Assembly: GCA_964489065.1 (NCBI GenBank)
Contig: CAZAXH010000007.1
Location: 10,672 to 74,671, forward strand
Direction: 5' to 3'
Source: an uncultured Planctomycetales bacterium
GTDB lineage: Bacteria > Omnitrophota > Gorgyraeia > Zapsychrales > JANLHA01
Length of the DNA stretch: 64,000 bases
Shown: piece by piece, positions 36,225-53,935 of the stretch
Numbering within the stretch: position 1 is the first letter of the stretch
Layout of the letters: every line of letters begins with the position of its first letter
Program-made: the position numbers and the translations under genes
Notes under the pieces: model-generated
The model's input: the letters and a program-made list of their open reading frames with translations, nothing else
What the model was told of the DNA's origin: nothing
The model's database searches: none

Positions 36225-37850
36225 TCATTGGTTTAAAAGCAACGGAGATCCCCGCCGCATCTTTTTCTGATTCATCCGGATAATCCTGGGCGTCCCATCA
36301 TGACGGGCCGACACGAAAACAAACATCGGATTCTCATTGTCAAAATAGTTCAAATAAATCATTTCCGCGAAACTGTAGCGTTTGGCGATCGGGTCCTGTT
36401 CGCGGAGACGATAGGGGTACATAAAATTCCCCGGGAAATCGTAATCGATGTAAAACGAAAACCCGGGCTGATCGCCCTCCCGCATGATCATCGACTCTAC
36501 GGCTTTGACGAGCTCGCGGCTCGGCGCGTACCACTGGGAGATGCGCCTATTCATGGAGTATACAAGACGACCATTGTGCAGCATCTGCCCCACAATCAAA
36601 ATGATAAAGGCGCACTTTATCGCCCGGGTCAAACGGTCGCTTGGCAGAGCCTCGAAGTTGACGGCCGAATACATAAAAACAACAAGGAAACACCAGATGA
36701 TGTAATGATAGATCACGGTCCCTCCGAGGGCAAAAGCCACTCCCCGCTCCTGCACCCGCGCGGATGAAATAACCGCGCCCCAGCATAAGGCCATACCTCC
36801 CAGTAAAGCCAGGAAGCCCAGCCGTTTTTTAAAGAATTCCCAGGTCCCGCTTCGTACGGCCAAAAATCCCCAACATAAAACAAATAAAGTCCCGAGCCAT
36901 AATTGCCACTCCGAAAAACCCATAACCGGGAAGATATCCTGCCGGTTGGCTAATTCCGCCCGGCCCAGGACATGGATAATTTCATATTTCCCGGGAAAAA
37001 GCGCCGAATAGATCCACCACCCCATGGCGAGAAAGGTGTTCTTGACGATTTGGACAAAATCCGGCAGGCCCGCCCCTTTAACCGGGTGCAGGCGATGGAA
37101 TCCCAGCGCCACATAGTTATATGCGCTGGCAACCATAAAAATGGCCGGGGGGATCAACAACCACAAAGACCGCCAGCGCCCGTGTTCCTTCCAAGAAACA
37201 GTCAAAAACAAATAAACAAAAAATAAAACAGAAAGAACCACACTGATTTCATAAGTCAAGGCGGCCACGGTCATTCCAGCGGACGCGATCATCAAACGGT
37301 GTGTTTGCCGACGTTTTCCTTCCTGATACAGCCATATCTGATTCAGGCTCATCAGGGTCATCATCACCGCCAAAAGAATACTGTTGACCGCGTGCCAGAC
37401 AACCGTTTCCATATTCATAAAAAGAAAAGAAAAATAGCCCGCCATCATAATGGCGAATAAACTGGAGCCGATATTGAGTAAAAGTCTTAATAACATTCCA
37501 ACGATGATCAGGTGCATAACAAGTCCGGTCACCTGCCACAGCACGAAATTATACCCAAAAAAAAACTTCTCTGATCCCATAAGAAAATACGCGCCGGGCC
37601 TGAAGATCAAATAATCCCCCGGGGCAAAAGTCCGGGAGCGCGACCAGTCAAAAGATTGGATAGCCAGGGGAACCCAATCCTGTTTATAAGCCATGTCAGC
37701 CAGATAAAACAGATGATCCGCCCGAGGCATATGGGAAAACGACGGGAAATATATAAGAATATTGCCCGCGACGATCATCAAAAACAGAAAAAAAATCCAT
37801 GTCCGGTTTGCGGTGATTTTCATAAACATCTTGCCCGGGACAGCCCCCAC
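36225..37850 (-). CDS. Polytopic integral membrane protein (at least 12 predicted TM helices), possible GT-C-type glycosyltransferase
   Basis: Long series of hydrophobic helices with short loops. No soluble catalytic motif recognised. The start is ambiguous (MFMKIT or MKIT). Confidence 0.55.
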   Translation of the reverse strand: MGAVPGKMFMKITANRTWIFFLFLMIVAGNILIYFPSFSHMPRADHLFYLADMAYKQDWVPLAIQSFDWSRSRTFAPGDYLIFRPGAYFLMGSEKFFFGYNFVLWQVTGLVMHLIIVGMLLRLLLNIGSSLFAIMMAGYFSFLFMNMETVVWHAVNSILLAVMMTLMSLNQIWLYQEGKRRQTHRLMIASAGMTVAALTYEISVVLSVLFFVYLFLTVSWKEHGRWRSLWLLIPPAIFMVASAYNYVALGFHRLHPVKGAGLPDFVQIVKNTFLAMGWWIYSALFPGKYEIIHVLGRAELANRQDIFPVMGFSEWQLWLGTLFVLCWGFLAVRSGTWEFFKKRLGFLALLGGMALCWGAVISSARVQERGVAFALGGTVIYHYIIWCFLVVFMYSAVNFEALPSDRLTRAIKCAFIILIVGQMLHNGRLVYSMNRRISQWYAPSRELVKAVESMIMREGDQPGFSFYIDYDFPGNFMYPYRLREQDPIAKRYSFAEMIYLNYFDNENPMFVFVSARHDGTPRIIRMNQKKMRRGSPLLLNQ

Positions 37851-37878
37851 TCTACTCCCAAGAGGAGCCTTCTCTCTC

Positions 37879-39303
37879 CTATCGGGATATAGGCCGCTGT
37901 CCTCCTTTTGTTTTTAAGCCGACCAAAGCGTCGTACCCCAATATCATGAGCCGTTTTATAATCAGCACCGGATTATACCCCAGCATCATCTGGATGACAT
38001 GAACAGGATGACGGAAAAAAGTATAAAGATACATGCGAAACGCGAAGCGCGCAAAATTAAAATTCTCTAACCCCTTGCTCACATACACCCGGCGGCCTGA
38101 GGTCGTGCCGGGAAGGAGAGTGTCCTGGATCTCCCCCTTTTTAACCAGTTCATCGTACACAGGAGTTCCGGGCATAGGCTGAAAATACTGTATCCCCAAG
38201 TGATCAAAGTCGCATTTTTTCATCAGCGCTTCGGTCTGGCGGATATCTTTCGTGGTCTCGCCCGGATACCCAATCAAAAATAATCCGATCGACACCAGCC
38301 CCGCGCTCCGGATTTCCCGGGCCTTAGCCGGCCACATATCCGGGTCCAAATCTTTTTTCATGAGTTTCAGCACCCGCCGGGAACCGCTCTCCGGGGCGAC
38401 AACCGCGGTCTTCCATCCGGCGCGCTTCATAAGTTTCAAAGTCTCAAAATCCACCCGCTGCGCACGAATCCCATTGGCCGTGTACATCGTCAATCCCTGA
38501 AAATTCTTTTTGATCAAAGCCTCACAAAAGCTCTTGGTATAATCCGCCTGAAAGGCAAAATTATCATCGATAATATTAACGTGACGCACCTTATATTTAT
38601 AATAAAGCATCGATATCCATTCAATCCCGTAATCCACGGAATGCCGGCGGATCTTATGTCCGTTAATCTGCGGGGCGGTGCAGAATTTACAGCTGTACGG
38701 ACAGCCCCGCGTCATCCAGATCGGCGCGCTGCGACGTGTCCCTGAAAAATAGCGGTACCCTTTACGGTAATATCGTTCCAGTTCAATAGCGTCATAATCT
38801 GGATAAGCGATCGTATCCAAATCCTGCGTGAAGGCCAAAGGATTCGTCATGAACCGGTCGTCTAAACGGTACACCAGGCCAGGGACGCGCAGGAGTTTTT
38901 CTTTATCACGCAGATTCTTTACGAATTCCTGGAAAGTGAACTCCGCTTCACCGGCCAGAATATAATCCGCCTGGCTGTCGCTTAAAGTCTTGGCCGCATA
39001 GGCCGTAGGATGTATTCCGCCCAGGACCGACACGGCTTCCGGAAGATCGTTCTTAACAACCGCCACGATTTTACGGGCTTCCTGATATGTCTTAGACCAG
39101 CAAGAAACCCCCACGACATCCGGGGCGTAATCCTTCAGGAATCGCCGGAAAGAATCTGAATGGGACGGCGCATTATTCAACGTACCGTCAAATATCTTAT
39201 ATTCCACTCCCGGGGCCCGGCAGTTAGATATAATATACCCCAAGCCAAGCGGAATGGAATAAGTGAAATCATTGCCATGCGGCCAAACGAGCGCAACCCT
39301 CAT
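37879..39303 (-). CDS. B12-binding domain / radical SAM protein
   Basis: N-terminal B12-binding-like domain (MRVALVWPHG...VVGVSCWS...VLGGIHPT). Radical SAM CxxxCxxC (GCPYSCKFC). Confidence 0.8.
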   Translation of the reverse strand: MRVALVWPHGNDFTYSIPLGLGYIISNCRAPGVEYKIFDGTLNNAPSHSDSFRRFLKDYAPDVVGVSCWSKTYQEARKIVAVVKNDLPEAVSVLGGIHPTAYAAKTLSDSQADYILAGEAEFTFQEFVKNLRDKEKLLRVPGLVYRLDDRFMTNPLAFTQDLDTIAYPDYDAIELERYYRKGYRYFSGTRRSAPIWMTRGCPYSCKFCTAPQINGHKIRRHSVDYGIEWISMLYYKYKVRHVNIIDDNFAFQADYTKSFCEALIKKNFQGLTMYTANGIRAQRVDFETLKLMKRAGWKTAVVAPESGSRRVLKLMKKDLDPDMWPAKAREIRSAGLVSIGLFLIGYPGETTKDIRQTEALMKKCDFDHLGIQYFQPMPGTPVYDELVKKGEIQDTLLPGTTSGRRVYVSKGLENFNFARFAFRMYLYTFFRHPVHVIQMMLGYNPVLIIKRLMILGYDALVGLKTKGGQRPISR

Positions 39304-39412: not shown

Positions 39413-39584
39413 AAAGGTATAAACCCCAGAGCAAGCTCTGGACTCAATGAACCGCAGAACGCGCTGCGGGGTATTCAACCAGCATCCTTCGGCTCGTTCG
39501 CTTTAGCTCTCTCGCGCTGAAGGATCAATTCGCATTTCTAATTTACACCCCCTTGGGTCGTGTAAACTAAATGCTCATTGAACG
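39413..39584 (+). repeat. Structured intergenic repeat, copy 3
   Basis: About 90% identical to copy 1. The second hairpin loop is changed (CCGCAG-AACGCG-CTGCGG) while the stem is preserved. Confidence 0.75.
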
Positions 39585-39845
39585 TGTCATTATACCGAAT
39601 AGTCTCGGGGTAAGAAACAAAAAGTTTCAAAAAGGGTGGATATTGATCCGCCTTCGTAGAAGACCACGGCATACCCATAAATGCGAGGGGGGAACAAGGT
39701 CTTCTGCTTCGGAGGTTCGCACATATATTAATTAAGAAGCCCGGGATCCCGTGAAACGAACTGTCCCTAGGCCCCCCCGCCCATAGGCGTGAGCCATCGC
39801 ACGAGCAGTGAATTTCAGAAACAGCGGAGAAATTGGAGAAAGGGA

Positions 39846-41282
39846 TTAAAAACTGTACGGGAAACGGAGTTCAAACGTCATATCGGGAGCATCCGTTGTC
39901 AGCCCAACACTAACGGCAAAATCCATGGAAGCCCGTTCACTGAGCGTCCAGTTAAAACCGGTCTTAAAATTAGCCGCGTTTTGAAAAGACCCAGGGACAT
40001 CACGCCCTTCCCGGTTCATTTTGCCGGTCACCGTGTGATCAAAAGAAAAGTTAATCGCTGTCTGATAACTCAAAGCGATGGCCGTGCCCAGGCTGTAGCC
40101 TATGGAATCCCCGGGGTCTACCTCTCCAAAATTCTCGATATCACCGCGCGGAATGTTGTAGGTATAATTAAGGCTCCCAAAAACAACCGCCGGGTCACTA
40201 GCTTTAGCCGCAACCAAGGCGCCACTCACCGCCCAGTGCCCGGTTCCCAAAGCAATATCTGTATTATAGGGTTCATCGCCTGTATTGGATTTGACGGACA
40301 GGCTCGCCACGAGATCAGGCATCATCCCGTGTTCCCACCCGATTTGACGGCTGATGGAAACCTGGATGTCCCCCAGCCCGCCTTTTGAATCAGTCTGATC
40401 ATAGGTCGTGCTGTCCGTGTTGGTAATGCGGTTATATTCAAAGCGGCCCGGGATGCGGACTTCGGTCTGCAGATTATGGAAAAGCCCGTATTTAAACGCC
40501 CAGGTATGGATAAATACGTCTCGTTTGACTTTCTCCGTATTTATGTCTCCCACGACCAGAATAGGAAGGATACTAAAACCATTAATATTAATCCGATTGG
40601 AAGAAAAATGCGCATAAGTTAAGCTCGGTTCAAACTGCAATTTACCTTTCGGAAGAAGGATACCCCCTTTTTGGACAAGCGTCCTCTCAATCGAATCGAC
40701 CCGTTCCTGAGATCCCGCAGCTTCGGTTTCTCCGGGTAAGTCTTCCTGTTTCTTAGAACTTTTCTCTGCAGCAATCGCCGAAGCCAAAAGCATAACATCC
40801 TGGGAAGGAACCGTCATCTTCCCCCCGCCCGGCCACGGAACATCCGATTCGATACCCTTCCCGACAACGACACGATCCAACTCCTCGTCGGTTAAACCAG
40901 TATTATGTTGGTCAACCGCTTCCCGGATTGTCCGACGGACAGCTTCGCGGATTAAGTCCTCATTCAAGGAAACGGCTTCACTCTGTTGAGAAAGCCCCAT
41001 TTCTGAGCTGGCCCCTTCCACCGCCGGGTTCGCTTTCTGAGCCCAAAAAGACTCCACTTCCTTCCGCACGGCTTCCCTGATAAAAGGTTCCATTTGGGCC
41101 AACACTTCGGCGCGCACGGCCCCCTGCATGTCACGGCGGATTTTAGCCGATAGGATGTCGATATCTATCTCGGACCGGGAGGAACGAAAATGAGCAACCA
41201 ACAAGACCGCGACGACCACCACAGCCGCAAATGCCATTATATAAAAGGGATTCTTTCTAAATATCATAATATTCTTTACCAC
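39846..41282 (-). CDS. N-terminally anchored outer-membrane beta-barrel protein with periplasmic helical domain (FapF-like transporter candidate)
   Basis: N-terminal hydrophobic anchor or signal. A helical segment (AEVLAQMEPFIREAVRKEVESFWAQ). A C-terminal beta-rich region with alternating aromatics that ends in ...FELRFPYSF, an OMP-type terminal Phe. Confidence 0.5.
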   Translation of the reverse strand: MVKNIMIFRKNPFYIMAFAAVVVVAVLLVAHFRSSRSEIDIDILSAKIRRDMQGAVRAEVLAQMEPFIREAVRKEVESFWAQKANPAVEGASSEMGLSQQSEAVSLNEDLIREAVRRTIREAVDQHNTGLTDEELDRVVVGKGIESDVPWPGGGKMTVPSQDVMLLASAIAAEKSSKKQEDLPGETEAAGSQERVDSIERTLVQKGGILLPKGKLQFEPSLTYAHFSSNRININGFSILPILVVGDINTEKVKRDVFIHTWAFKYGLFHNLQTEVRIPGRFEYNRITNTDSTTYDQTDSKGGLGDIQVSISRQIGWEHGMMPDLVASLSVKSNTGDEPYNTDIALGTGHWAVSGALVAAKASDPAVVFGSLNYTYNIPRGDIENFGEVDPGDSIGYSLGTAIALSYQTAINFSFDHTVTGKMNREGRDVPGSFQNAANFKTGFNWTLSERASMDFAVSVGLTTDAPDMTFELRFPYSF

Positions 41283-41959
41283 TCATTAGTAAAAATCGTG
41301 GTCCTGAGCTGAAACGGGTTGAAGAAACGTTTAATCGCCCGATAGTCTGTCATACGGATATCGTCCTGGTCTACTTTTAAAGCATAGTCCCCTTTAATTT
41401 CTTGGCCGGGACGCTCAACCACGAACCCGATTCCATTCGTCCACATCGACATAAATTTCTCTTTTTTCATGGTCATGTTTCCGACCGCCGGGTCCGCGAT
41501 GAATACCCTGTCGCCGAAAACGCCCTTAACAACAACAAAATGCCGGTAATTCTTAAATTTAATTGGCACCAGGACCGGTTTCCCCAGGGATTTTAAATAC
41601 TCGAAATCCATCCGGTATCCGGTCACAAGATATCCCCTGGACTGTGCGAATTTTTTTAAATCAAACAATGAAAATCCCTGCCGGGCAATCACCTTGTCCA
41701 AAGGGATAGTATTGAGCATGGAATTAATTATTTCAACTTCAGGGATAGGATCATTCAAGTAGTAATGAAACAGGGTGGCTAAACCGGCCGCGCCGCAGCT
41801 GTAATCCAGGCTTTGTGTTACGACATTTTCCTGCCGGATTTCTTTCAAGCACCGGACTTTCTTGTTAAACCCCATGCCCCCGGCAGAAAAATTGGCCGCA
41901 TGCGCGGCCACCGTAAGGTTCGAGAGGACACACAGACTGAAAAATATTTTCTTTATCAT
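41276..41959 (-). CDS. Standalone periplasmic C39-family cysteine peptidase-like protein (FapD-like)
   Basis: Signal peptide. Catalytic-Cys context typical of C39 peptidase domains (SLDYSCGAAGLATL). Later His and Asp are present (YRHFVVV...DPA). About 227 aa with no ABC-transporter fusion. Confidence 0.65.
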   Translation of the reverse strand: MIKKIFFSLCVLSNLTVAAHAANFSAGGMGFNKKVRCLKEIRQENVVTQSLDYSCGAAGLATLFHYYLNDPIPEVEIINSMLNTIPLDKVIARQGFSLFDLKKFAQSRGYLVTGYRMDFEYLKSLGKPVLVPIKFKNYRHFVVVKGVFGDRVFIADPAVGNMTMKKEKFMSMWTNGIGFVVERPGQEIKGDYALKVDQDDIRMTDYRAIKRFFNPFQLRTTIFTNEW

Positions 41960-42015
41960 TTTTATATTTTAGACAAAATAACGGCGGGATGCAAATGATT
42001 AATACAAGAAAGGGG

Positions 42016-42471
42016 TTAAGGTGCAATCACAAGATTATTGTTGCTGATCACATTACCGGCGATCGTTGAATTGATGATAACATTCAGGTTCAACCCGACC
42101 AAAACATTGCTGCCTGCCGCATTGACATTCACGAGGCTATTGGCGAACTGTTGGGCATAATCCTGCAAATTAATGTAATTAATATCTCCGGACCCCGTAC
42201 TAAAAATAGGGCTAGCCCCTGTGTCCCCGCTAAAAAACAGCGTCGCATCCCCACTTGCGTCCAAGCTGAAATTAAGTTCCGGCGGCATGAATATTTTATC
42301 AAAACTCCCCAAAAAATCATTAAATCCGCTAAAATTAAAACCATGCGCGTAAATTTGATCGAGTTCCTCATCTGACAGGACCACAGCCGTTCCCGCCGCA
42401 AACAGCGAAGAAACGACAGTCATGGAGAAAATAACCGCTGCCATAATCATGAACACATGCTTTCGCACCAT
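42016..42471 (-). CDS. Small secreted protein, paralogue of the giant repetitive protein (FapB-like nucleator candidate)
   Basis: Signal peptide followed by VVLSDEELDQIYA, which matches IALSDSEMDEIAA in the giant protein. N/V/G/S-rich C-terminal strands (NVNAAGSNVLVGLNLNVIINSTIAGNVISNNNLVIAP). GAGGGAGG ribosome-binding site. Confidence 0.5.
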   Translation of the reverse strand: MVRKHVFMIMAAVIFSMTVVSSLFAAGTAVVLSDEELDQIYAHGFNFSGFNDFLGSFDKIFMPPELNFSLDASGDATLFFSGDTGASPIFSTGSGDINYINLQDYAQQFANSLVNVNAAGSNVLVGLNLNVIINSTIAGNVISNNNLVIAP

Positions 42472-42569
42472 ACCGCAGGGCCTCCCTCTTTCCCTAAAAC
42501 ATTTATATACAGTATTCTGTGGGGGAAAAGAAATTCCCTTCCCCCACAGAATATCTGTCCTACTTCTTT

Positions 42570-45038
42570 TTAAAGACCATTCGTCACGTTCGCAACGTTG
42601 GATTGGTTAATCGCACCATTCAAACTACCCGTCGCACTCATAATGTTCGTTTGAACAGACACGCCAGATCCAACAGCGTTTACAGTACTCAACGCGGTGA
42701 TGCCGGCCTGTGAAGATCCGGATAAAATCAACACGTTTTTCTCGCTCTTATTTTGACGATTTGTGTTCGTAACTTCCGCTACGTTTGTGATTGTCTGACT
42801 TGCATCGTTGGTTGTCGCTTCGATGTCTTTTGTTTCAACCGCATTCTCGGTTTTCTCATACTGATCTTTGAACTCATCGTTGTTACGTGCTTGCGCACTT
42901 TCGGAAGCCTGCTCTTCTTCATGGTTAAACGTCGTTGATAAGGCTCCTTCAGCTTCGAAATTGCTCGTGGTTGACAGACTATTTTCATCAGAATGATCCG
43001 TCGTGTCAATCGAGTCGGTCGAAGCGGCAATATCACGAGATGCTGATGTGGATACGGCGTCAGAATCCGTGTACCCGATCGTCAACCCGGATGAAGAGTC
43101 AGATGAATCCGCTTCAGATGCAGAAGCAGAAGCCGCATCATCATACGCCACGTTTAAAGAACCCGAAGCTGTGGTGTCTGTAGAAGAAGCGGATGACGCT
43201 GAATCATTATAAGCAGCATCTACGGAATTAGACGCTGTCGCTTCTGAAGAAGAAGCAGATGACGCAGAGTCATCATAGGCTGCGTTTAAAGAACCGGAAG
43301 CTGTGGTGTCAGCAGAAGAAGCAGCCGACGCAGAATCATTGTACGCAGCATCTACGGAATCAGACGCTGTCGCCTCTGAAGAAGAAGCGGCTGACGCGGA
43401 ATCATTATAAGTTCCATTTAAAGAACCCGATGCTGTTGTTTCTTCCGAAGCAGCGGCAGATTGCTGAGCTTCGTTAGAAGCAGCCGCATTGGCAGAATTA
43501 GACGCAGAATCATTATAAGTCGCGTTCAGATTCCCAGCTTCATTACTGTTAGAGTCTGCAGAACTGGAGCTCGCGGCAGAATCATTGTAAGTCGCAGAAA
43601 GCGCGCCGGAGGCATCCGTACCCTCGGAGCTGGCCGCTGATGTTGACGCTGTGTTGTCTTTGCTGTCATACGTGTCGCTGCTGGAAGCAACGCCTTCAAC
43701 CGTGGTGGTTGAGGTCGCGCAATCTTCGCAGGTGTCCGTGCTCTGGCTATAAGTCCCGTCAAGCGCCTGCGCACTTGTCGTGGTTTCCCCATCCGTGGCC
43801 GATGAACTGGTCGAAGATTCCGATGCCGCGTTGTCAGAATACTGGGCATTGGCATCTAAAGTAGCGGATGTGGCTTCTTCAGCAGCAGCTTCTTGAGAAG
43901 CACTATCCGACGCGGAATAGTCAGCTTCCAGAGAAGCGGCCGTCGCATTATCAGCCTGTGAACTGCTTTGGGATTGAGCGGCTTCACTGGCGCTGGATTC
44001 AGAAGCTGCGCTATCAGAATAGTCAACAGCTACGTCTAAGGACGCATCCGTTGCTTCCTGCGACTGCGAAGCAGCACTATTAGAGGAAGCCGAATCCGCT
44101 GCAAAGGTCGCGGAGGTCGCTTCTTCTGACTGGGCGGCTTCACTGTCAGAATAGTCAACAGCCACGTCTAAGGACGCACTGGTGGCTTCTTGGGATTGCG
44201 AAGCAGCACTATTAGAGGAAGCTGAATCCGCTGCAAAGGTCGCGGAGGTCGCCTCTTCTGCCTGAGCGGCCGCACTGTCAGAATACTGGGCTTCGGCATC
44301 TAACGACGCGGACGTCGACTCGGCCGATTCAGATTCAGCCGTGTGAGCGGCTGACTGTTGAGCCTGTTGATCGTAATCAAACGTCGTGTCATGGGAAGCG
44401 TTGAACTGCGCGTCAGCGCTGTCTGTGGCTGCGGCGTGATCTTCGTTCAAAGTTGAATCAGTGACTTTAGACGCTGCATCAGAAGTAGCAGAGCTTGATC
44501 CAGAAGCGGACGCGTCTAATGTAGCCGATGTAGATTCGGAAGAACTGCTGGCTGCTGAAGACTGCTCGTTGTCATATATTTGGGTATTGTCTTCTTTTTC
44601 CCACAGGTCAGACGTCTTCACTGTGGTTTCTTTTGACCAAGCATTAACCTGATCCTGTTCCACGATATTCGTGGATTTGGTGGTCACGGAATAATCTTCA
44701 GAAGGATTCATGTTAACCACCGCCGCAGTGTTGCTCTGGACCGCCTCCACGTCAGCCTGATCTTCAGAATTACCGACGTTGGTCTGCACGGCAACCGCGC
44801 TGTCCACCGTATTAACAACACTCAATCCTGTTAAATTTTCCTGCGCGCCACTTTCGGATTTGAGTTGATTTTCGCTGAAATAAACATCCTCCACCACATC
44901 GCCTTCAGCGACCACGATCCATTCACCAGCCGCGATTTCGTCCATTTCGGAATCAGAAAGCGCAATGCCTTCTGCGTAACCGGCCACCGGATAGGCGGCG
45001 AACGCCACGGCCAAAATCCAAATTAATAATTTTTTCAT
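42570..45038 (-). CDS. Giant secreted S/A/D/T-rich repetitive protein with conserved N- and C-terminal N/Q/V/G-rich modules (FapC-like amyloid subunit candidate)
   Basis: Start set at MKKLLIWILAVAFAAYPVAGYA with a ribosome-binding site; the track start at 45107 is over-extended. A roughly 650-aa low-complexity core carries 44-aa tandem repeats. The termini resemble the small paralogue (…VNAVGSGVSVQTNIMSATGSLNGAINQSNVANVTNGL). Confidence 0.5.
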   Translation of the reverse strand: MKKLLIWILAVAFAAYPVAGYAEGIALSDSEMDEIAAGEWIVVAEGDVVEDVYFSENQLKSESGAQENLTGLSVVNTVDSAVAVQTNVGNSEDQADVEAVQSNTAAVVNMNPSEDYSVTTKSTNIVEQDQVNAWSKETTVKTSDLWEKEDNTQIYDNEQSSAASSSSESTSATLDASASGSSSATSDAASKVTDSTLNEDHAAATDSADAQFNASHDTTFDYDQQAQQSAAHTAESESAESTSASLDAEAQYSDSAAAQAEEATSATFAADSASSNSAASQSQEATSASLDVAVDYSDSEAAQSEEATSATFAADSASSNSAASQSQEATDASLDVAVDYSDSAASESSASEAAQSQSSSQADNATAASLEADYSASDSASQEAAAEEATSATLDANAQYSDNAASESSTSSSATDGETTTSAQALDGTYSQSTDTCEDCATSTTTVEGVASSSDTYDSKDNTASTSAASSEGTDASGALSATYNDSAASSSSADSNSNEAGNLNATYNDSASNSANAAASNEAQQSAAASEETTASGSLNGTYNDSASAASSSEATASDSVDAAYNDSASAASSADTTASGSLNAAYDDSASSASSSEATASNSVDAAYNDSASSASSTDTTASGSLNVAYDDAASASASEADSSDSSSGLTIGYTDSDAVSTSASRDIAASTDSIDTTDHSDENSLSTTSNFEAEGALSTTFNHEEEQASESAQARNNDEFKDQYEKTENAVETKDIEATTNDASQTITNVAEVTNTNRQNKSEKNVLILSGSSQAGITALSTVNAVGSGVSVQTNIMSATGSLNGAINQSNVANVTNGL
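43151..43480 (-). repeat. In-frame 132-nt tandem repeats (about 2.5 units) inside the giant protein gene
   Basis: The unit beginning CGTTTAAAGAACC(C/G)GAAGCTGTGGTGTC recurs at 43151, 43284 and 43416. It encodes repeats of the type ...ASGSLNAAYDDSASSASSSEATASNSVDAAYNDSAS... Confidence 0.7.
43985..44300 (-). repeat. Second family of in-frame 132-nt tandem repeats (about 2.4 units) inside the giant protein gene
   Basis: The unit containing TCAGAATAGTCAACAGC(T/C)ACGTCTAAGGACGCA recurs at 44014, 44146 and 44278. It encodes ...ATSATFAADSASSNSAASQSQEATSASLDVAVDYSDSEAAQSEE... Confidence 0.7.
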
Positions 45039-45421
45039 TGTTATCCTCTCTTTGACTGCAAGGGCGAAAAGCCAGCTTCGCTTTCCATTAACCCTCTGCT
45101 CACTCACTTATTTTTATTCGCCAAATTCACGTGCCTCGTCCTTCCTAACTATATCCGCGCTCACCTCCTTTCAAATCCTTCACAATAAAAAGACCGGAAC
45201 GAACCAAACCTACTTGGCTCTTTTCCGGGATGACTTTTTTACAAGTTGTCTTTTTCATCAATTTAAGGACCCTGACATGCGACATAAAAAATCGCCCCTA
45301 TTTTAGCAACAAACCAGTTATAAACAATGGCCGCATTTGTTCATCTATTGGAATTTTTTGTCTTGGGCACCCCATAAAAAGGCAGGCCATTTTTTAACAA
45401 AGCAATACTTTTTAGGGGATA

Positions 45422-46288
45422 TTAAAGGCCGGACTCAACCGGCGCAAGTCTGGGATGGATCTTCGGCAAAGTTAAGCGGCGGGACGTTTGACAAACCCGG
45501 TAAAAACCCGGAGTCTGCCCATACGCTTTCTTAAACAATTTACAAAAATACCCTGGATCTTCATAACCGCAGGCATAAGCGATTTCCGTGACAGAGAGGC
45601 TTTTGTTCTGTAAAAGCCGGGAAGCGACTTGCAGGCGAATCCGGTTAAGATATTGGGTAAAACTCGTTTTCAAAACCTTCTTGATTAACCGGCTCAAATA
45701 ATGATAACTCAATCCAGTTTCTTCACAAAGGCTCCGGAGCGAAAGATCCGGGCGATGATAGTTCGCATTAATATAATACGCCACTTTCTCAACAATTTTT
45801 TGCTGGTAACTCATGGCGTTCTCTTTAACGTTGGCGAACTGATTCAGTTCTTGACTTATGTCTGACAAAAAATTTTCCAAAAGGTTAATAATCGCTCTGA
45901 TTTGTTGTTGGCTGAGACGAAAATGAGGAGGCTCCGAAACGAGCAAATAACCAACGATCTGCTGACGGATCTCAATGGGAAGTAAAATTTTGGTAAACCC
46001 GGCCCGGCATTTGTTAATCTGCATTTTCCCGGAACTGGTCGCCTTCTCTATAATAACTGAAATCAAAGAATCACAACCCTCAGTCCGATACTGGCAATCC
46101 GCGTGGGAATCCTGGGCCTCCCCGTACCGGGGTTTATGAGAAGCGGGGGAATAATTGCATTTAAAAATCCGGCCGTCTAATGACCGGATTTCCAAAGTGG
46201 CACCGCATAAGATACAAATAATTTCCTGGATGTGTTTGAACGCCTGAGCTTCTTCAAAATACTCTAAAAGAGTATTAAAGTTCATCAA
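45422..46288 (-). CDS. AraC-family transcriptional regulator with N-terminal Cys-containing sensor domain
   Basis: C-terminal AraC-type HTH (LSVTEIAYACGYEDPGYFCKLFKKAYGQTPGFYR). It lies immediately upstream of, and co-oriented with, the giant repetitive protein gene. Confidence 0.8.
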   Translation of the reverse strand: MMNFNTLLEYFEEAQAFKHIQEIICILCGATLEIRSLDGRIFKCNYSPASHKPRYGEAQDSHADCQYRTEGCDSLISVIIEKATSSGKMQINKCRAGFTKILLPIEIRQQIVGYLLVSEPPHFRLSQQQIRAIINLLENFLSDISQELNQFANVKENAMSYQQKIVEKVAYYINANYHRPDLSLRSLCEETGLSYHYLSRLIKKVLKTSFTQYLNRIRLQVASRLLQNKSLSVTEIAYACGYEDPGYFCKLFKKAYGQTPGFYRVCQTSRRLTLPKIHPRLAPVESGL

Positions 46289-46426
46289 ACCCTCCTCTGC
46301 AAATTATATTAGGCACCTGACTCTTCCCCTTTTTAATGGAATTCTAAAAATTTGTCAACATGACACAAATGGACAACCCCAGACAGGGACACACTGGGAA
46401 ACACCCTGACACGAAAGCAGCCCGCG

Positions 46427-47323
46427 TTAATATTGAAAATATATTTTCACTTCTTTAAGATGATGGGTTCCGGATTTCGAGGAAAGGCCCGGAGACAAAA
46501 GAGACTTTTTATTGAGGCAATCCTGGGCGTTCTGGAAATTCTGGCGAAGGCATGCGAGTTGCTGTTCGTGTCCCAGGGCAAAGAGGCCGTTAATAAGTTC
46601 TAAATATTGCATAAAATACTTGGTGGCGGCAAAATAATTCAATTCCACACCCACGGCCGAAGGTCCCGGCGCGAATGTCAGCGTTTTGCGTCCCTGAATG
46701 ATATATTCTTTATCGCCGAGGATCGTGGGGTGAGCAAACCGCGAACATTGCCGGAACATCGCTTCGTATTCCTGGTGGAGTTCGCGGCTGACAAGGCGGG
46801 CCATGTCTTTAACCGTCTTGCCGGACCAGGTCACCAGAGCGCGGTCTGAAACGACATGATATTTTTTCCTGAAATTATCCACATGCTCCAAAACCAAGGC
46901 TTTCTTTTCGGAGAACTCCTGCTGAGCTTCCCGGGACGCGCTTCGCACGGACAATTCTTCTTCGGCCATGGAACGCTTAAAAATAATCCATTTATATTCC
47001 ACAAACCGTCTGGCTTTTTCATCCGCGTTCCGGAGATCATAAATGATATACCGCACCGTGATCAGGTTCTCCAGCAGGCTCCGGATCAGGGAGGAGACAT
47101 CCTGCCCGTACCCGCGTTTGCATAACACCTCAATAGCCGCGAAAGTTTTGACCGCCCGGGTCATAATAAAGAGAAAAATTCGCTTATGCGCCGGAAGATC
47201 AAAAAGTTTAATATTGCGCCTGTTGATATCCTGGAAAAGCGTTCTCCCCAGGTCATGAGCGGCCTTCCCTGCCTGGGTCAGATCAAGACAAGAAATATAA
47301 TTATGATCTTTATTTTTAGTCAT
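46427..47323 (-). CDS. Hypothetical cytoplasmic protein
   Basis: Coding-like composition over about 900 nt. No recognisable motif. Confidence 0.4.
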   Translation of the reverse strand: MTKNKDHNYISCLDLTQAGKAAHDLGRTLFQDINRRNIKLFDLPAHKRIFLFIMTRAVKTFAAIEVLCKRGYGQDVSSLIRSLLENLITVRYIIYDLRNADEKARRFVEYKWIIFKRSMAEEELSVRSASREAQQEFSEKKALVLEHVDNFRKKYHVVSDRALVTWSGKTVKDMARLVSRELHQEYEAMFRQCSRFAHPTILGDKEYIIQGRKTLTFAPGPSAVGVELNYFAATKYFMQYLELINGLFALGHEQQLACLRQNFQNAQDCLNKKSLLSPGLSSKSGTHHLKEVKIYFQY

Positions 47324-51017: not shown

Positions 51018-53774
51018 TTATTTTTCTTTAAGCGGGATATTAAACACATACGTGATCCCTTCCCCGACTTTAATTTCATTCCTGATTTTAACAAGCGGAA
51101 TATATTTTATCGGGAGCGAATTGACATCCAGCTCCAAAACATGCGACCCCGGCGTAATATTGTCAAAGCTGTACGTCCCCTCAAAATCACTGTAGGTGAC
51201 GTCCTTCCCGTCCAGGATAATCCTGGCCTTGGAAATAAATTCATCGTCTCTATCTAAAATATTATTTTGATTGACGTCAACGAACACAACGCCATAAACA
51301 CCGGACTGGCTGGTTAAGCCGAAATTATTCACGTGCACTTTTTGGTGGTCCACCAGGACATCTTTCATAAACCCGTCGGAATTGATATACCCGGGCGGCA
51401 AGGTTGAAATGTCCAGGGCGACCCTCACTTTTTGCGCCTTGACGACCGCGTAATAACGGCCCTGGTCATTGGTTTTCACAAGCTTATCGCCGACTTTAAC
51501 CCCGATACCGGGAAGCCCTGCTTCGCCCGGATCAGGCACCGTGTTGCCGTTAGCGTCATTGAAAACCCGGCCCGTAAACCTCCCCGTGGGATTCCAGCGG
51601 AAAAATGTGTCCCAATTGGTCCGCACCCCTAACCGGACATCGGCGTCATTATAAGCCGCATTATCCGGAGCTTCCCTCCAAACGCTGCGGACATTCCCAT
51701 CCATATAGACTTCAAAATCAGCGTTGGGACGATAAACAAACCCCAGAGAGCCGCGGATGGAATCTTCCCCGGACAGAAAGCTAAACTGGCCTGTCGTGTT
51801 CTCTTCGTCCCGGTAGCGCAAGCTCATTCTGCCGGACAGAGGGTCGGTCATCCTCCAGGAATAATCAACTCCTGTGCTAAAAACATGCGGATAGCTCCAA
51901 CGGTCTTCCAGAAGATTCCGGACAAACGAATATTCATAATTCACATAAAACCCTATATTAAAAAACAGCGGCATCCGCAGGCCCGCGGACAAAGAATTGC
52001 GGTCAAATTCGGAAGCTGGAGATTTATCATAACGGTTCTGCTGATAGGTCTGACCGAGCGACAAAGTCATCGCCCGGCCCCATAAAAACGGAAAGCGCTG
52101 GTTAAACATGTTCGAAAGGGTTTTGCTTTCGTGCGGAGAAATAAGCTGGGGGGTATACGACACAAAAGCCCCGCTGGTCCAATTCGAGGCGGAGGACAAA
52201 GGATAATTCAAGGAGCCGTTCCAATCAAAGTTCAGCGCGTCTTCTTTGTCAGGGTTGGATAAAAACCGGTCGCGATAAAAGTCAAGATTCGAATTGACCC
52301 GGGCTTTCTCTCCCCGAAACGCGTAGCGGATATTTCCTCCGACTTCTCCCCTGTCTGAAGGGCGCCCGACCAAAGTCACGTAATCTTTATGGATATCGCG
52401 GAAATTCATATTAAAACTGTAGGCCTTTTTCTTAATCTCCGTCCTCACGATGTCGCTGTAGACATCCTCATCTGACGCTAATTCCCCGTATATTTTAAAA
52501 TCCCGGAATTTGTGTTCGGTCTCCGCGGAAAAAACCTTGTCTTTTAAAAAATTATCCCTCGAGTCGCCATACCCTCTCCCGGCGTTGACCGTGTACGTGT
52601 GATCTCCTTGCGGGAATAACGTCACGCTCGCCCCTTCAATATGGGTTTTTTTGACGCTCATGATCCCGGGGCTCAAAAAGAGAAATTGAGCGCGGTCCTG
52701 CCCCTGAAAGACCGTGTAATGAAGGTTATGATTAAACGCATAACTTTCCAATTTGACGCCCCGAAAACTCCGGCCCGGGATTGATAAATCGGACAAAAAG
52801 ACTTCCGTATCAAACCCCCGGATAATGAAATCCCGGAATGGGCCGATATGCCCGTCGGCCAATCCCATCCGTTCGCCAATCCGCTCCGTGGATTCGGCAT
52901 ACTTATAGAAATTCATAGAGGCGTCAAAATCGCCATACGGCGTCTTCCCGTACGTCCCGACCCACTGGGAAAAATTAAGGCTGGTCCGGGCCATATCCGG
53001 AATACGGTCCCCCAAATAAATTCCACTCCAATTATTTGAATACGCGATATTAAAGGGCGGGGCGTCGGCCTTCCCTGTCAATTCAAATTTTTCCAGCGCT
53101 AAATTCTGCTGAATAACCGGGAGCTGACCCTTCACGTTAAAAGTCCAGCGGCCCCGGTCATCCCAAACATGAAAAAAGGTGGCCCCCCGGACTTTAGTCA
53201 TAAAACTGATGCGGTCCTTGTCCAGCCGGTCCACCTCCAGGACGCCTTCATTGACGGCTAAAAACTGTTTAATATTCCGGCCCTGCAGAACATACGCCTT
53301 ATTGGTTTCTATTTCTAACTCCGTATTGGGCTGCATGGCCCAAAGGACATCATCCAGCTTAAGGATAGCCGCATCCCTAGGTTTAAGCGCCATTTCTCTG
53401 GCCTGCATTATGGCTGACGAAGGGGAAAACTGCTGCGCGATGGTTGTCCGGGCGTCCTTCTCCGATTCCCCGGGGGCCACCATCGCTTCTTGAGGAGGGG
53501 CCGCCGTCTGGACCACGGCCGTGCGGCCCTCTTTAAACCGTTTAATGAGATTAATATACTTAAGAGGAGTGTCTCTTGCCGTATTTATAGACTGGGCTCG
53601 CTCGAAATACGCAATGGCTTTCTCATAGAACCCCTTATCAAAAGCCCGTACGCCCAAACTCATGTAATAATGATAATCAGCGTCCGCCCCTGCCCAGGCG
53701 CCTTGGGGGAAGGCAATAAGAAATAACGCAGCAATAAGAATTCCAAGGAAAAATTTGATCATACCTCGCAACAT
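51018..53774 (-). CDS. Large outer-membrane-associated protein: signal peptide, N-terminal TPR-like segment, central beta-rich region, two C-terminal Cna-B/SdrD-B-like domains
   Basis: Signal peptide. TPR-like segment (YHYYMSLGVRAFDKGFYEKAIAYFERA). Long stretch of alternating aromatic beta-strand pattern. C-terminal repeats (GRVFNDANGNTVPDPGEAGLPGIGV...; GVVFVDVNQNNILDRDDEF...). Confidence 0.55.
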   Translation of the reverse strand: MLRGMIKFFLGILIAALFLIAFPQGAWAGADADYHYYMSLGVRAFDKGFYEKAIAYFERAQSINTARDTPLKYINLIKRFKEGRTAVVQTAAPPQEAMVAPGESEKDARTTIAQQFSPSSAIMQAREMALKPRDAAILKLDDVLWAMQPNTELEIETNKAYVLQGRNIKQFLAVNEGVLEVDRLDKDRISFMTKVRGATFFHVWDDRGRWTFNVKGQLPVIQQNLALEKFELTGKADAPPFNIAYSNNWSGIYLGDRIPDMARTSLNFSQWVGTYGKTPYGDFDASMNFYKYAESTERIGERMGLADGHIGPFRDFIIRGFDTEVFLSDLSIPGRSFRGVKLESYAFNHNLHYTVFQGQDRAQFLFLSPGIMSVKKTHIEGASVTLFPQGDHTYTVNAGRGYGDSRDNFLKDKVFSAETEHKFRDFKIYGELASDEDVYSDIVRTEIKKKAYSFNMNFRDIHKDYVTLVGRPSDRGEVGGNIRYAFRGEKARVNSNLDFYRDRFLSNPDKEDALNFDWNGSLNYPLSSASNWTSGAFVSYTPQLISPHESKTLSNMFNQRFPFLWGRAMTLSLGQTYQQNRYDKSPASEFDRNSLSAGLRMPLFFNIGFYVNYEYSFVRNLLEDRWSYPHVFSTGVDYSWRMTDPLSGRMSLRYRDEENTTGQFSFLSGEDSIRGSLGFVYRPNADFEVYMDGNVRSVWREAPDNAAYNDADVRLGVRTNWDTFFRWNPTGRFTGRVFNDANGNTVPDPGEAGLPGIGVKVGDKLVKTNDQGRYYAVVKAQKVRVALDISTLPPGYINSDGFMKDVLVDHQKVHVNNFGLTSQSGVYGVVFVDVNQNNILDRDDEFISKARIILDGKDVTYSDFEGTYSFDNITPGSHVLELDVNSLPIKYIPLVKIRNEIKVGEGITYVFNIPLKEK

Positions 53775-53935
53775 TTCTGCGGTTCCACGGCGTCTTCTAA
53801 AAATTTAACTTACAAAAACCCACCTTATCCGACATTTCCCTATGGTATCTTTGCACAAAATTCAACATGAAACCGAAACACAGAAAAAAAAATCACCACC
53901 TTGCTTAAATATTATTTACCGTCCGGCATGCAGTC

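What the first reader, a model, noticed from the sequence alone, without database searches (positions are those of the whole stretch)
42570..45038. 822-aa secreted protein with about 650 aa of S/A/D/T low-complexity sequence and two families of perfect 132-nt in-frame tandem repeats
The repeats at 43151-43480 and 43985-44300 are near-identical at the DNA level. This implies recent expansion and a high potential for slipped-strand or recombinational length variation, as in a variable-number tandem repeat surface protein. The extreme Ser/Ala/Asp/Thr composition suggests a heavily O-glycosylated or mineral-binding extended linker. It is flanked by conserved terminal modules, which is unusual for a putative amyloid subunit.
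Basis: seen in the sequence. Interest (0 to 1): 0.55.

Follow-up and report, generated by a model that had tools for sequence, protein, structure and literature searches.

The report
Fap-like fibre subunit with giant two-armed spacer

Summary
The 822-aa ORF (42570-45038, minus strand), its signal peptide and its ~650-aa S/A/T/D-rich centre are real. The two in-frame 132-nt repeat arrays are real too, but their units are only 83-89% identical, not perfect.

The gene heads an operon: major subunit, 151-aa minor subunit, periplasmic C39 peptidase (FapD/FilB-like), outer-membrane barrel (FapF-like). This operon recurs in Omnitrophota and Planctomycetota MAGs. The subunit family has no Pfam, NCBIfam or PDB match and most members are ~310 aa.

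AlphaFold2 on a short homolog puts the centre into one long beta-hairpin between two copies of a conserved module. Three results fit this:
- In 46 homologs the two arm lengths co-vary (r = 0.99, constant difference of 2 aa). In the window protein they are 325 and 322 aa around a CxxC tip.
- In four long homologs each arm carries its own tandem array with the same period and copy number at mirror positions.
- The arms share no DNA similarity, so the expansions were independent and compensatory.

Copy number is stable: 822 aa in both lineages, with one 778-aa assembly as the exception. Subunits and transporter share a double-glycine-like motif ending in AG, a candidate C39 recognition site. Verdict: a new variant of a known kind of system.

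The parts
42570..45038 (-). Major subunit gene, 822 aa plus stop codon
   Evidence: ORF. RBS GAGAGG upstream of the ATG at 45038. Homologs start at the equivalent Met. A 100% identical copy is in a Logan contig of SRR15237810.
44973..45038 (-). Sec-type signal peptide, aa 1-22 (MKKLLIWILAVAFAAYPVAGYA). The cleavage site is inferred.
   Evidence: Read from the sequence. The same n-h-c layout is present in all homologs. No signal-peptide predictor was available.
44925..44960 (-). Leader motif LSDSEMDEIAAG (aa 27-38), double-glycine-like but ending in Ala-Gly. Proposed C39 recognition or cleavage site.
   Evidence: The motif is present in 103 of 119 family proteins that start with Met. Median start is residue 26, and 102 of 103 end in AG. 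It occurs in 0.25% of shuffled N-termini. A36, G37 and W39 are nearly invariant in alignment A2.
44703..44924 (-). N-terminal core module (aa 39-112), contains NTVDSAVAVQTN and ends at NMNP
   Evidence: Conserved in all homologs. Predicted beta-hairpin in the homolog model. The same module occurs as 12-18 tandem copies in P0085 and P0077.
43731..44702 (-). N arm of the central spacer (aa 113-436), S/A/T/D-rich
   Evidence: 325 residues lie between anchor P112 and tip residue E438. The equivalent region of the short homolog is one long beta-strand.
43986..44321 (-). N-arm tandem array, 2.5 x 44 aa (aa 240-351).
   Evidence: Best 132-nt unit identity is 89%.
43719..43730 (-). Hairpin tip C437-E-D-C440 (CxxC)
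   Evidence: It lies at the midpoint (437.0) between the two core motifs. An equivalent C-K-x-C tip occurs in 18 of 46 short homologs, and both Cys are always present together.
42759..43718 (-). C arm of the central spacer (aa 441-760)
   Evidence: 322 residues lie between E438 and R761. No DNA similarity to the N arm in either orientation.
43113..43460 (-). C-arm tandem array, 2.6 x 44 aa with a 22-aa sub-period (aa 527-642).
   Evidence: The mirror image of the N-arm array about residue 437 is aa 523-634. The sister lineage has an N-gap (L001) and a one-unit deletion (L015) here.
42573..42758 (-). C-terminal core module (aa 761-822), contains NAVGSGVSVQTN and ends in VTNGL
   Evidence: Conserved. 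No amino-acid change against the sister lineage (6 synonymous, 0 non-synonymous codon changes).
42509..42558 (-). Strong RNA stem-loop between the major and minor subunit genes
   Evidence: MFE -46.7 kcal/mol for the 116-nt stretch, z = -6.75, and none of 200 shuffles folds as well.
42016..42471 (-). Minor subunit, 151 aa: signal peptide, leader-like LSDEELDQIYAHG, one C-terminal copy of the core module (LVNVNAAGSNV...)
   Evidence: Orthologs of 240-609 aa sit at the same operon position in L002, L004-L006 and L009.
41276..41959 (-). Periplasmic C39 cysteine peptidase (FapD/FilB-like) with its own signal peptide
   Evidence: Pfam Peptidase_C39 6.8e-22. NCBIfam FilB 1.3e-39 and FapD 3.2e-34, both below the curated cut-offs. 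SCGAAG and RHFVVV motifs are visible in the sequence.
39846..41282 (-). FapF-like outer-membrane barrel protein (start codon uncertain: 463-478 aa)
   Evidence: NCBIfam FapF 1.5e-43, aligned to model positions 100-420 of 420, below the cut-off. Pfam Phenol_MetA_deg 6.8e-11.
40851..40895 (-). Leader-like motif GLTDEELDRVVVGKG inside the periplasmic linker of the FapF-like protein (aa 130-144)
   Evidence: An equivalent motif sits at about the same place in all six FapF-like proteins compared, for example ILPESQMEIIVGG in L002 and LVSDEELDKIVAAGG in L006. The regex matched four; the other two were read by eye.
45422..46288 (-). AraC/PocR-type regulator next to the operon
   Evidence: Pfam HTH_18 and PocR. 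An AraC-type gene lies next to the operon in L001, L002, L005-L009.
46427..47323 (-). DUF5677 protein, conserved neighbour of the operon
   Evidence: Pfam DUF5677 1.1e-19. 42-53% identical orthologs lie upstream of the major subunit in L002 and L005-L009.

Best explanation
The gene encodes the major secreted subunit of a Fap-type (FapD/FapF-dependent) surface-fibre system in a Candidatus Omnitrophota bacterium.

Proposed pathway (inferred):
1. The Sec system exports the pre-protein.
2. A short propeptide ending in Ala-Gly (LSDSEMDEIAAG), built like a double-glycine bacteriocin leader, is recognised and probably cut by the operon's periplasmic C39 peptidase.
3. The unfolded chain leaves through the FapF-like outer-membrane barrel.

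Proposed structure:
- The two terminal ~60-75-aa modules are copies of one repeat that other family members carry 12-18 times in tandem (shown). They form the stacked beta core of the fibre (inferred).
- The ~650-aa acidic Ser/Ala-rich centre is one insertion between these two modules. It leaves and returns at the same point. Its halves run antiparallel as a very long two-armed hairpin with a CxxC tip. Equal arms, a mid-point tip and mirror-positioned arrays are shown; the beta-hairpin fold is predicted only for a short homolog.

Because the arms must stay in register, a tandem duplication in one arm has been matched by a duplication of the same length in the other. The arm length (about 65 aa in most relatives, about 320 aa here) would set how far an acidic, silk-like bristle projects from the fibre (speculative).
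For: System and organism:
- FapF-like and FapD/FilB-like neighbours.
- The same gene order (major, minor, C39, barrel) in L002, L004-L006, L009, L011 and L021.
- Cluster mates of the window's proteins are named Candidatus Omnitrophota.

Core modules:
- Conserved at both ends in 46+ homologs.
- 18 and 12 matched stretches in P0077 and P0085.
- One copy in the minor subunit.

Hairpin:
- The AF2 model of P0005 with a 46-sequence alignment gives strands 121-182 and 189-250, pLDDT 62.5.
- Arm lengths in 46 homologs are 66/64, 72/70, 76/74, 78/76 and 80/78; r = 0.986, difference 2.0 +/- 0.6.
- Window arms are 325/322 and the CxxC lies at the exact midpoint 437.0.
- Tip Cys pairs occur 18/18 together, and nested symmetric Cys pairs at -23/+24 and -3/+4 occur in two homologs.
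- Mirror arrays with equal period and copy number in four long proteins: window 44 aa x 2.5/2.6; L005 36 aa x 4.3/4.4 (290-445 vs 586-744, mirror 588-743); L006 54 aa x 2.3/2.4; L009 48 aa x 1.6/1.8.
- No DNA similarity between the arms in either orientation.

Constraint on the arms:
- No indel, and synonymous:non-synonymous codon changes of 73:32 and 69:32 against the sister lineage.

Leader:
- Motif in 103 of 119 family proteins, against 0.25% of shuffles.
- The same motif in the minor subunits and in the FapF-like linker.
- FapD is a periplasmic, catalytically required C39 peptidase whose substrate is unknown (PMC5557850).
Against: - No sequence similarity of the subunit or its module to FapC, FapB, CsgA or any Pfam, NCBIfam or PDB entry. 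The fibre or amyloid nature therefore rests on operon context only.
- The FapF and FapD matches are far below NCBI's equivalog cut-offs.
- AF2 on the window protein alone is uninformative (pLDDT 33). The hairpin model comes from a short homolog at moderate confidence (pLDDT 62.5, pTM 0.33).
- A two-stranded ribbon with about 320-residue arms and a net charge near -115 has no hydrophobic core. It is unlikely to be stable alone without counter-ions or lateral packing.
- The leader has Ala, not Gly, at position -2. In the window's minor subunit position -1 is His. Bacteriocin-leader HMMs do not match it; the single weak hit is E = 0.055.
- No cleavage, secretion or fibre has been observed.
Confidence: 0.6

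Rival explanations
1. The centre is an intrinsically disordered, possibly O-glycosylated or cation/mineral-binding spacer with no defined pairing. The repeats are just low-complexity drift.
For: About 66% of residues are S/A/T/D, there are 130 acidic against 15 basic residues, and there is almost no hydrophobic content. The single-sequence AF2 model has pLDDT 33. FapC linkers are known to be long, variable and exposed (PMC3792158).
Against: Disorder alone does not predict arm lengths locked to a 2-residue difference across 46 homologs and in the 822-aa protein. It does not predict mirror arrays of equal period and copy number in four long homologs, co-occurring and symmetric Cys pairs, or zero indels with more synonymous than non-synonymous changes against the sister lineage. 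No glycosyltransferase is conserved with the operon across loci.
Confidence: 0.2
2. The gene is a contingency-type VNTR locus: repeat copy number changes often by slippage or recombination and produces surface length variants in the population.
For: One sister-lineage assembly (L015, 778 aa) lacks exactly one 44-aa C-arm unit. Another (L001/L013) has an N-gap at that array. The sister C-arm units are 129/132 nt identical, which suggests recent gene conversion.
Against: The window's own units are only 83-89% identical. The length is 822 aa in the window lineage and in four complete sister-lineage assemblies, with no indel at 11% DNA divergence. The deletion and the gap lie exactly where a short-read assembler would collapse a 97.7%-identical 132-nt repeat.
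Confidence: 0.12
3. The long hairpins of several subunits assemble into a beta-barrel tube or pore, as in beta-pore-forming toxins or phage tail tubes, rather than projecting from an amyloid-like fibre.
For: The only Foldseek PDB matches to the homolog model are long beta-hairpin stems: phage Andhra and phi29 tails, and lysenin, anthrax PA, CDTb and aerolysin pores. By my reading of the sequence, strands near the tip of short homologs alternate hydrophobic and acidic residues.
Against: TM-scores are about 0.1, so the match is to a generic hairpin only. The window protein's arms have no amphipathic hydrophobic stretch. The operon encodes a Fap-type exporter, and relatives with 12-18 tandem modules and no long arms use the same operon.
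Confidence: 0.05
4. The repeat region is an assembly artefact (collapse or expansion) and the true gene differs.
For: Assemblers visibly struggle at the C-arm array in the sister lineage: an N-gap in L001 and a one-unit deletion in L015.
Against: The window's units differ at 11-17% of positions, enough for unambiguous assembly. An identical sequence is in a Logan contig, though possibly built from the same reads. The orthologous gene has the same length and array structure in four assemblies from different samples and pipelines. The arm-length rule derived from other proteins is obeyed.
Confidence: 0.03

Closest known systems
Pseudomonas Fap functional-amyloid system (FapA-F; FapC major subunit, FapB/FapE minor, FapD C39 peptidase, FapF outer-membrane transporter)
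   Same: Both have a periplasmic Sec-exported C39 peptidase and a FapF-related barrel encoded directly after the subunit genes. Both have major and minor subunits that share an imperfect repeat module. In both, a variable region between repeats accounts for most of the size variation (PMC3792158). In both, the substrates are predicted to be unfolded as monomers.
   Different: There is no detectable sequence similarity of the subunits to FapC or FapB, and no FapA or FapE homolog was found. The phyla differ: Omnitrophota/Planctomycetota here, Proteobacteria for Fap. There are two core repeats instead of three. The spacer is a single insertion with strictly equal halves and mirror arrays. The substrates and the transporter carry a clear double-glycine-like motif, which Fap proteins are reported to lack (PMC5557850).
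Acinetobacter 'Fil' putative pilus system (NCBIfam FilB C39 peptidase, FilC)
   Same: FilB is the best NCBIfam match of the peptidase (1.3e-39), and FilC also matches the barrel (2.2e-16).
   Different: Both scores are far below the cut-offs. No Fil subunit model matched the major or minor subunit. I found no experimental literature on Fil biogenesis.
Double-glycine leader peptides cut by C39 peptidase domains of bacteriocin ABC exporters (PCATs)
   Same: The consensus L-S-x-x-E-L/M-x-x-I-x-(G)-G has hydrophobic residues at -12, -7 and -4 and an acidic residue at -8 (this consensus is from my own knowledge of the family). The window's LSDSEMDEIAAG fits at -12, -11, -8, -7, -4 and -1. A C39 peptidase is encoded alongside.
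   Different: Position -2 is Ala in 102 of 103 cases. The motif follows a Sec signal peptide and would act in the periplasm, not the cytoplasm. It also occurs inside the transporter's linker. Leader HMMs do not match it.
Curli (CsgA/CsgB)
   Same: Both are secreted subunits built from imperfect N/Q/S/A-rich strand-turn-strand repeats, with a major and a minor subunit.
   Different: There is no CsgG/E/F-type machinery and no sequence match. Curli subunits have no spacer between repeats.
Antiparallel coiled-coil arms of SMC/Rad50 proteins (analogy only, from my own knowledge)
   Same: Two distant segments of one chain pair antiparallel, so their lengths must co-vary.
   Different: Those arms are alpha-helical and intracellular. 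Here the arms are predicted beta, extracellular and low in complexity, and they grow by tandem duplication.

Membership tests
Fap functional-amyloid system | FapF-type outer-membrane transporter encoded in the operon | tested here: inconclusive
   NCBIfam FapF E = 1.5e-43 over model positions 100-420, but 149 bits against an equivalog cut-off of 700. It is a relative, not an equivalog.
Fap functional-amyloid system | Periplasmic C39 peptidase FapD with a Sec signal and catalytic Cys/His | tested here: inconclusive
   FapD E = 3.2e-34 (118 bits, cut-off 330). FilB scores higher. Pfam C39 is above its cut-off. The signal peptide and the SCG and RHF motifs are visible in the sequence.
Fap functional-amyloid system | FapB/FapC subunits with Fap repeats (minimal pattern G-x4-N-x3-G-x6-N; PMC3792158) | tested here: not met
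   No NCBIfam or Pfam hit. Profiles of the major family and of the module do not find the PDB FapC chains 9nqd and 9u4u even at E <= 10. Those chains are in the library, because a FapC-like query found them.
Fap functional-amyloid system | FapA and FapE accessory proteins | tested here: not met
   No gene in the operon matches them. The only extra gene is the 151-aa minor subunit, which has no NCBIfam hit.
Functional amyloid (general) | Cross-beta fibrils (dye binding, X-ray fibre pattern, detergent resistance) | not testable with these tools
   The only evidence is an all-beta prediction for a homolog and the operon context.
Double-glycine leader / C39 substrate | Leader consensus with hydrophobic -12, -7, -4 and Gly-Gly (or Gly-Ala/Ser) at -2/-1 | tested here: inconclusive
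   The hydrophobic and acidic positions fit. Position -1 is Gly, but -2 is Ala in 102 of 103 cases. There is no HMM match apart from one hit at E = 0.055 to a lacticin-481 leader.
Double-glycine leader / C39 substrate | Cleavage by the cognate C39 peptidase | not testable with these tools
   Requires a biochemical assay or N-terminal proteomics.
VNTR / contingency surface protein | Near-identical tandem units | tested here: not met
   83-89% identity in the window. The feature is met only in the sister lineage's C-arm array, at 97.7%.
VNTR / contingency surface protein | Copy-number polymorphism among close relatives | tested here: inconclusive
   The window and four complete sister-lineage assemblies are 822 aa. 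One assembly is 778 aa (minus one unit) and one is gapped. Assembly collapse is not excluded.
Beta-pore-forming toxin | Amphipathic membrane-spanning hairpin and a fold match outside the hairpin | tested here: not met
   Foldseek TM-scores are about 0.1 and the match is to the hairpin only. The window arms lack hydrophobic alternation.

The most novel reading that the evidence does not exclude
This would be a previously undescribed class of bacterial surface fibre in Omnitrophota and Planctomycetota. It would have a stacked-repeat (amyloid-like) core, and each subunit would project one acidic, silk-like beta-hairpin bristle. Bristle length would be tuned from about 65 to over 400 residues per arm by compensatory tandem duplications in the two arms. 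Its substrates and transporter would carry the first clear recognition motif (L-S-D-x-E-M/L-D-x-I-x-A-G) for FapD-type periplasmic C39 peptidases, whose target in the Pseudomonas Fap system has been unknown since 2017.
Probability: 0.35. Interest if true: 0.8.

Novelty: new variant of a known kind. Interest (0 to 1): 0.66.

Why it matters
1. It extends Fap-type (C39 peptidase plus FapF-like barrel) export beyond Proteobacteria, to uncultured Omnitrophota and Planctomycetota, with a substrate family that has no Pfam, NCBIfam or PDB match.

2. The substrates and the transporter carry a conserved, easily testable leader-like motif. The substrate of FapD is still stated to be unknown (PMC5557850), so this system could answer that question by a simple cleavage assay.

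3. Matched tandem duplications in two unrelated halves of one protein show that structure can constrain how low-complexity sequence evolves. They are also a warning against reading such regions as unstructured linkers.

4. A fibre core with a spacer of naturally tunable length could be a useful scaffold for engineered amyloid or curli-type materials.

Tried and rejected
- Pfam and NCBIfam scans of the major and minor subunits gave no hits.
- PDB sequence searches with the family profile, the module profile and the 18-repeat relative found nothing. FapC was not found, although a FapC-like query did find FapC chains 9nqd and 9u4u.
- AF2 on the 822-aa protein alone was uninformative (pLDDT 33).
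- Foldseek against the PDB matched only generic long hairpins at TM about 0.1. The afdb50 library was unavailable.
- An inverted or direct DNA duplication as the origin of the mirror arrays was rejected: blastn between the arms gives a best E of 0.11 in either orientation, and only 20-nt chance inverted repeats were found.
- Rfam on 39500-46500 gave no riboswitch or known RNA, only weak miRNA-like hits on the intergenic stem-loop.
- The promoter and terminator scans were not above shuffle expectation.
- Leader peptides against NCBIfam bacteriocin-leader models gave one hit at E = 0.055.
- The B12-radical-SAM gene downstream was considered as a modifying enzyme. It is absent from the Omnitrophota loci L005, L006 and L009, so it is probably not part of the system.
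- Literature searches for Fil biogenesis, Omnitrophota amyloid, periplasmic C39 with a double-glycine leader, and FapF homologs in Planctomycetes found no description of this family.
- An exact look-up of the 822-aa and 845-aa products found neither on record as a protein, although the 845-aa gene call exists on Logan contig L010.
Full report
**1. The observation**

The minus strand carries an open frame from 45107 to 42570. The ATG at 45038 has a GAGAGG ribosome-binding site upstream and corresponds to the MKK... start of every homolog.

Residues 1-22 look like a Sec signal peptide; this is read from the sequence, and no predictor was available. Residues 150-790 are S 24%, A 22%, T 11% and D 10%. 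After the AG motif the protein has 130 acidic and 15 basic residues.

- The pair at 44005-44268 is 89% identical.
- The array at 43116-43445 is 83% identical at period 132 and 67-71% at its 66-nt sub-period.

At protein level the arrays are aa 240-351 and aa 527-642, each about 2.5 copies of 44 aa at 78-79% identity. Self-identity at offset 44 is 0.32, above the maximum of 0.25 in 200 shuffles.

**2. Context**

The genes downstream on the same strand are:
- A 151-aa secreted protein.
- A 227-aa C39 peptidase with its own signal peptide: Pfam 6.8e-22; NCBIfam FilB 1.3e-39 and FapD 3.2e-34.
- A 478-aa outer-membrane protein: NCBIfam FapF 1.5e-43 over model positions 100-420; Pfam Phenol_MetA_deg.

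All NCBIfam scores are far below the equivalog cut-offs. An AraC/PocR regulator and a DUF5677 gene lie upstream.

Exact-sequence look-ups place the window's proteins in clusters whose named members come from Candidatus Omnitrophota MAGs. A Logan contig of SRR15237810 is 100% identical to the window over 8.4 kb.

In Pseudomonas, FapF is the trimeric channel for unfolded amyloid subunits. FapD is a periplasmic C39 peptidase whose catalytic Cys is required for secretion. [quoted passage not shown]

**3. The protein family**

A query made of the two termini found 9 relatives. A profile found 48. An exhaustive HMMER scan of 1.84 billion representatives found only 102. None has a Pfam domain or an informative name.

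Full-length members are typically 292-364 aa. They all have the same layout:
- A signal peptide.
- The motif L-S-D-x-E-M-D-E-I-A-A-G followed by E/D-W-V.
- A module containing N-A-N-A-V-D-S-A-V-A-V-Q-T-N and ending in N-Y-N-P-S.
- About 130 polar residues.
- R-K-N-L-S-E-N-N-H, then a second related module (N-L-N-A-V-G-S-G-A-A-x-Q-T-N ... V-x-N-G-L).

A scan of GTDB species genomes and contig look-ups show the same operon in MAGs labelled Planctomycetia/Planctomycetales and Omnitrophota.
- Short subunits often occur as two paralogs (L002, L004).
- Several MAGs have one long subunit: 985 aa (L005), 1055 aa (L006) and 840 aa (L009), with an S/A-rich centre like the window's.
- A third architecture (L021) has subunits of 1283 and 1000 aa, with 18 and 12 stretches matching the family profile, almost all of them tandem copies of the module. 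These lie in the same kind of operon.

The minor subunit carries one copy of the module at its C-terminus. The module is thus the repeating core element, and the centre is an insertion of variable length between two core copies. Neither the family profile, the module profile nor the 18-repeat protein matches FapC, CsgA or anything else in the PDB, Pfam or NCBIfam. A FapC-like control query did find FapC chains 9nqd and 9u4u.

**4. The centre is two matched arms**

AF2 on the window protein alone gave nothing (pLDDT 33). AF2 on the 310-aa homolog P0005 with a 46-sequence alignment gave an all-beta model (pLDDT 62.5, pTM 0.33). Each terminal module is a short hairpin, and the whole centre is one hairpin with strands 121-182 and 189-250. 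I tested this moderate-confidence prediction in ways that do not depend on AF2.

(a) *Arm lengths in short homologs.* In the 46 aligned homologs I counted residues from the Pro of NYNPS to the conserved tip Lys, and from that Lys to the Arg of RKNLSENNH. The values are 66/64, 72/70, 76/74, 78/76 and 80/78. The correlation is r = 0.986 and the difference is 2.0 +/- 0.6. Insertions in one half are matched by insertions of equal size in the other.

(b) *Arm lengths in the window protein.* The same anchors give 325 and 322 residues. The tip is C437-E-D-C440, which sits at the exact midpoint (437.0) between the two core motifs.

(c) *Cysteine pairs.* A C-K-x-C tip occurs in 18 of 46 homologs, always with both Cys present. 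Two homologs have nested symmetric Cys at -23/+24 and -3/+4 from the tip.

(d) *Mirror arrays in long homologs.* In all four long proteins, each half carries its own tandem array with the same period, the same copy number and similar unit identity, at mirror-image positions:

| Protein | Period | N-arm array | C-arm array | Mirror of the N-arm array |
|---|---|---|---|---|
| Window | 44 aa | 240-351 (2.5 copies) | 527-642 (2.6 copies) | 523-634 |
| L005 | 36 aa | 290-445 (4.3 copies) | 586-744 (4.4 copies) | 588-743 |
| L006 | 54 aa | 223-347 (2.3 copies) | 751-882 (2.4 copies) | 760-884 |
| L009 | 48 aa | 296-372 (1.6 copies) | 531-616 (1.8 copies) | 538-614 |

(e) *Independent origin.* The two arms share no DNA similarity in direct or inverted orientation (best E 0.11). 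The symmetry therefore does not come from one duplication event. It reflects independent expansions that compensate for each other.

(f) *Selection on the arms.* Against the sister lineage, the arms show synonymous:non-synonymous codon changes of 73:32 and 69:32 and no indel. They are under purifying selection.

By my rough estimate, which is not a formal test, equal periods and mirror positions in four proteins by chance are of order 1e-10.

Whether the pairing is a simple two-stranded beta-ribbon, as AF2 draws it, or something more folded remains open. A ribbon with about 320-residue arms and net charge near -115 would need counter-ions or lateral packing. The Ala/Ser-rich composition recalls silk-like beta-sheet formers; this comparison is my own. 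Foldseek finds only generic long hairpin stems of pore formers and phage tails at TM about 0.1.

**5. Repeat stability**

Look-ups through the neighbouring peptidase recovered the orthologous gene of a sister lineage (89% DNA identity, 91.6% aa identity) from NCBI, JGI and ENA assemblies.
- Four complete copies are 822 aa and differ from one another by 0-1 nt.
- One partial copy matches over 811 aa.
- One (L015) is 778 aa and lacks exactly one 44-aa C-arm unit.
- One (L001/L013) has a 130-N gap in the same array.

In that lineage the C-arm units are 129/132 nt identical while the N-arm units are 80% identical. In the window the figures are 86% and 89%. The arrays therefore undergo occasional homogenisation, but copy number is conserved between lineages. 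The 778-aa form could be a real variant or a short-read collapse, and only long reads can tell. An assembly artefact in the window itself is unlikely.

**6. Leader motif**

The pattern [LMIV]-x-[DENS]-x-x-[LMI]-x-x-[IVM]-x-[AG]-G occurs within the first 90 residues of 103 of 119 family proteins that start with Met.
- The median start is residue 26, directly after the signal peptide.
- 102 of the 103 end in Ala-Gly.
- It occurs in 0.25% of shuffled N-termini.

Its spacing fits the double-glycine leader consensus (my knowledge of that family): hydrophobic at -12, -7 and -4, and acidic at -8. The difference is Ala at -2.

The minor subunits carry the same helix. Their endings vary...YAGG...HAGG or ...YAGA in some loci...YAHG in the window. 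All six FapF-like proteins compared have it in the periplasmic linker about 50 residues before the FapF-homologous part, for example GLTDEELDRVVVGKG in the window and ILPESQMEIIVGG in L002. The regex matched four of the six, and I read the other two by eye. Bacteriocin-leader HMMs do not detect it.

The inference is that this is the docking or cleavage signal for the operon's periplasmic C39 peptidase. This would parallel the published suggestion that FapD acts on FapE and/or the FapF linker. It is inferred, not shown.

**7. Verdict**

The gene is the major subunit of a Fap-like export and fibre system. It is not a member of the FapC family, because that membership test failed. Its low-complexity centre is best read as a length-matched, two-armed insertion whose repeat arrays are compensatory expansions. 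It is not a recently expanded hypervariable VNTR.

- Machinery: a known kind.
- Substrate family, leader motif and mirror co-expansion: not described in the literature I could search.
- Novelty: new variant of a known kind.
- Interest: 0.66.

Noticed in passing
window 42509-42558 (-), between the major and minor subunit genes: There is a very stable RNA stem-loop with a 19-bp perfect core. The 116-nt stretch has MFE -46.7 kcal/mol, z = -6.75, and none of 200 shuffles folds as well. It is probably an attenuator or 3' stabiliser that sets the ratio of major to minor subunit. Rfam gives only weak miRNA-like hits here.
   Followed up: partly
window 40851-40895 (-), aa 130-144 of the FapF-like protein; also L002, L004-L006, L009: The outer-membrane transporter carries the same double-glycine-like motif as its substrates, in its periplasmic linker (GLTDEELDRVVVGKG; ILPESQMEIIVGG in L002). 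The C39 peptidase may therefore also dock on or cut the transporter.
   Followed up: partly
window 46427-47323 (-) and 45422-46288 (-); L002, L005-L009: A DUF5677 gene (42-53% identical orthologs) and an AraC-type regulator accompany the operon across distant MAGs. The role of DUF5677 is unknown.
   Followed up: partly
L021 8001-15042 (GCA_030765235.1): The same operon type has two major subunits of 1283 and 1000 aa, with 18 and 12 stretches matching the family profile, almost all of them tandem copies of the terminal module. They have no long S/A arms. They lie next to a giant protein of more than 4154 aa and a polysaccharide-export (Poly_export) gene.
   Followed up: partly
L015 887-3223 (JGI 3300026163) and L001 about 9796-9925 (JGI 3300027914): In the sister lineage, one assembly lacks exactly one 44-aa C-arm unit (778 aa) and another has a 130-N gap at the same array. 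The units there are 97.7% identical. This could be real copy-number variation or assembly collapse.
   Followed up: yes
window 36225-39303 (-): A B12-binding radical-SAM gene (474 aa) and a 541-aa polytopic membrane protein with no Pfam hit lie just downstream of the operon. A radical-SAM gene is also downstream in L002, but not in L005, L006 or L009, so it is probably not part of the system.
   Followed up: partly
window 51018-56885 (-): This is a second cluster of secreted or envelope proteins: 918 aa with SdrD_B-like and T2SS pilus-N-like pieces, then 298, 219 and 460 aa with signal peptides and no Pfam family. It may be another surface-structure locus.
   Followed up: no
window 43003-43212 (+) and other antisense ORFs inside the gene: Stop-free ORFs on the opposite strand encode similar S/A/E/D-rich peptides. 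They are a by-product of the GCN/GAN/AGC-rich codon usage, not evidence of genes.
   Followed up: no
short homologs in alignment A2; window aa 437-440: A CxxC (mostly C-K-x-C) sits at the hairpin tip in 18 of 46 homologs. Two homologs also have symmetric Cys pairs further along the arms. This suggests cross-arm disulfides formed in the periplasm before export through a narrow channel, which is mechanistically puzzling.
   Followed up: partly
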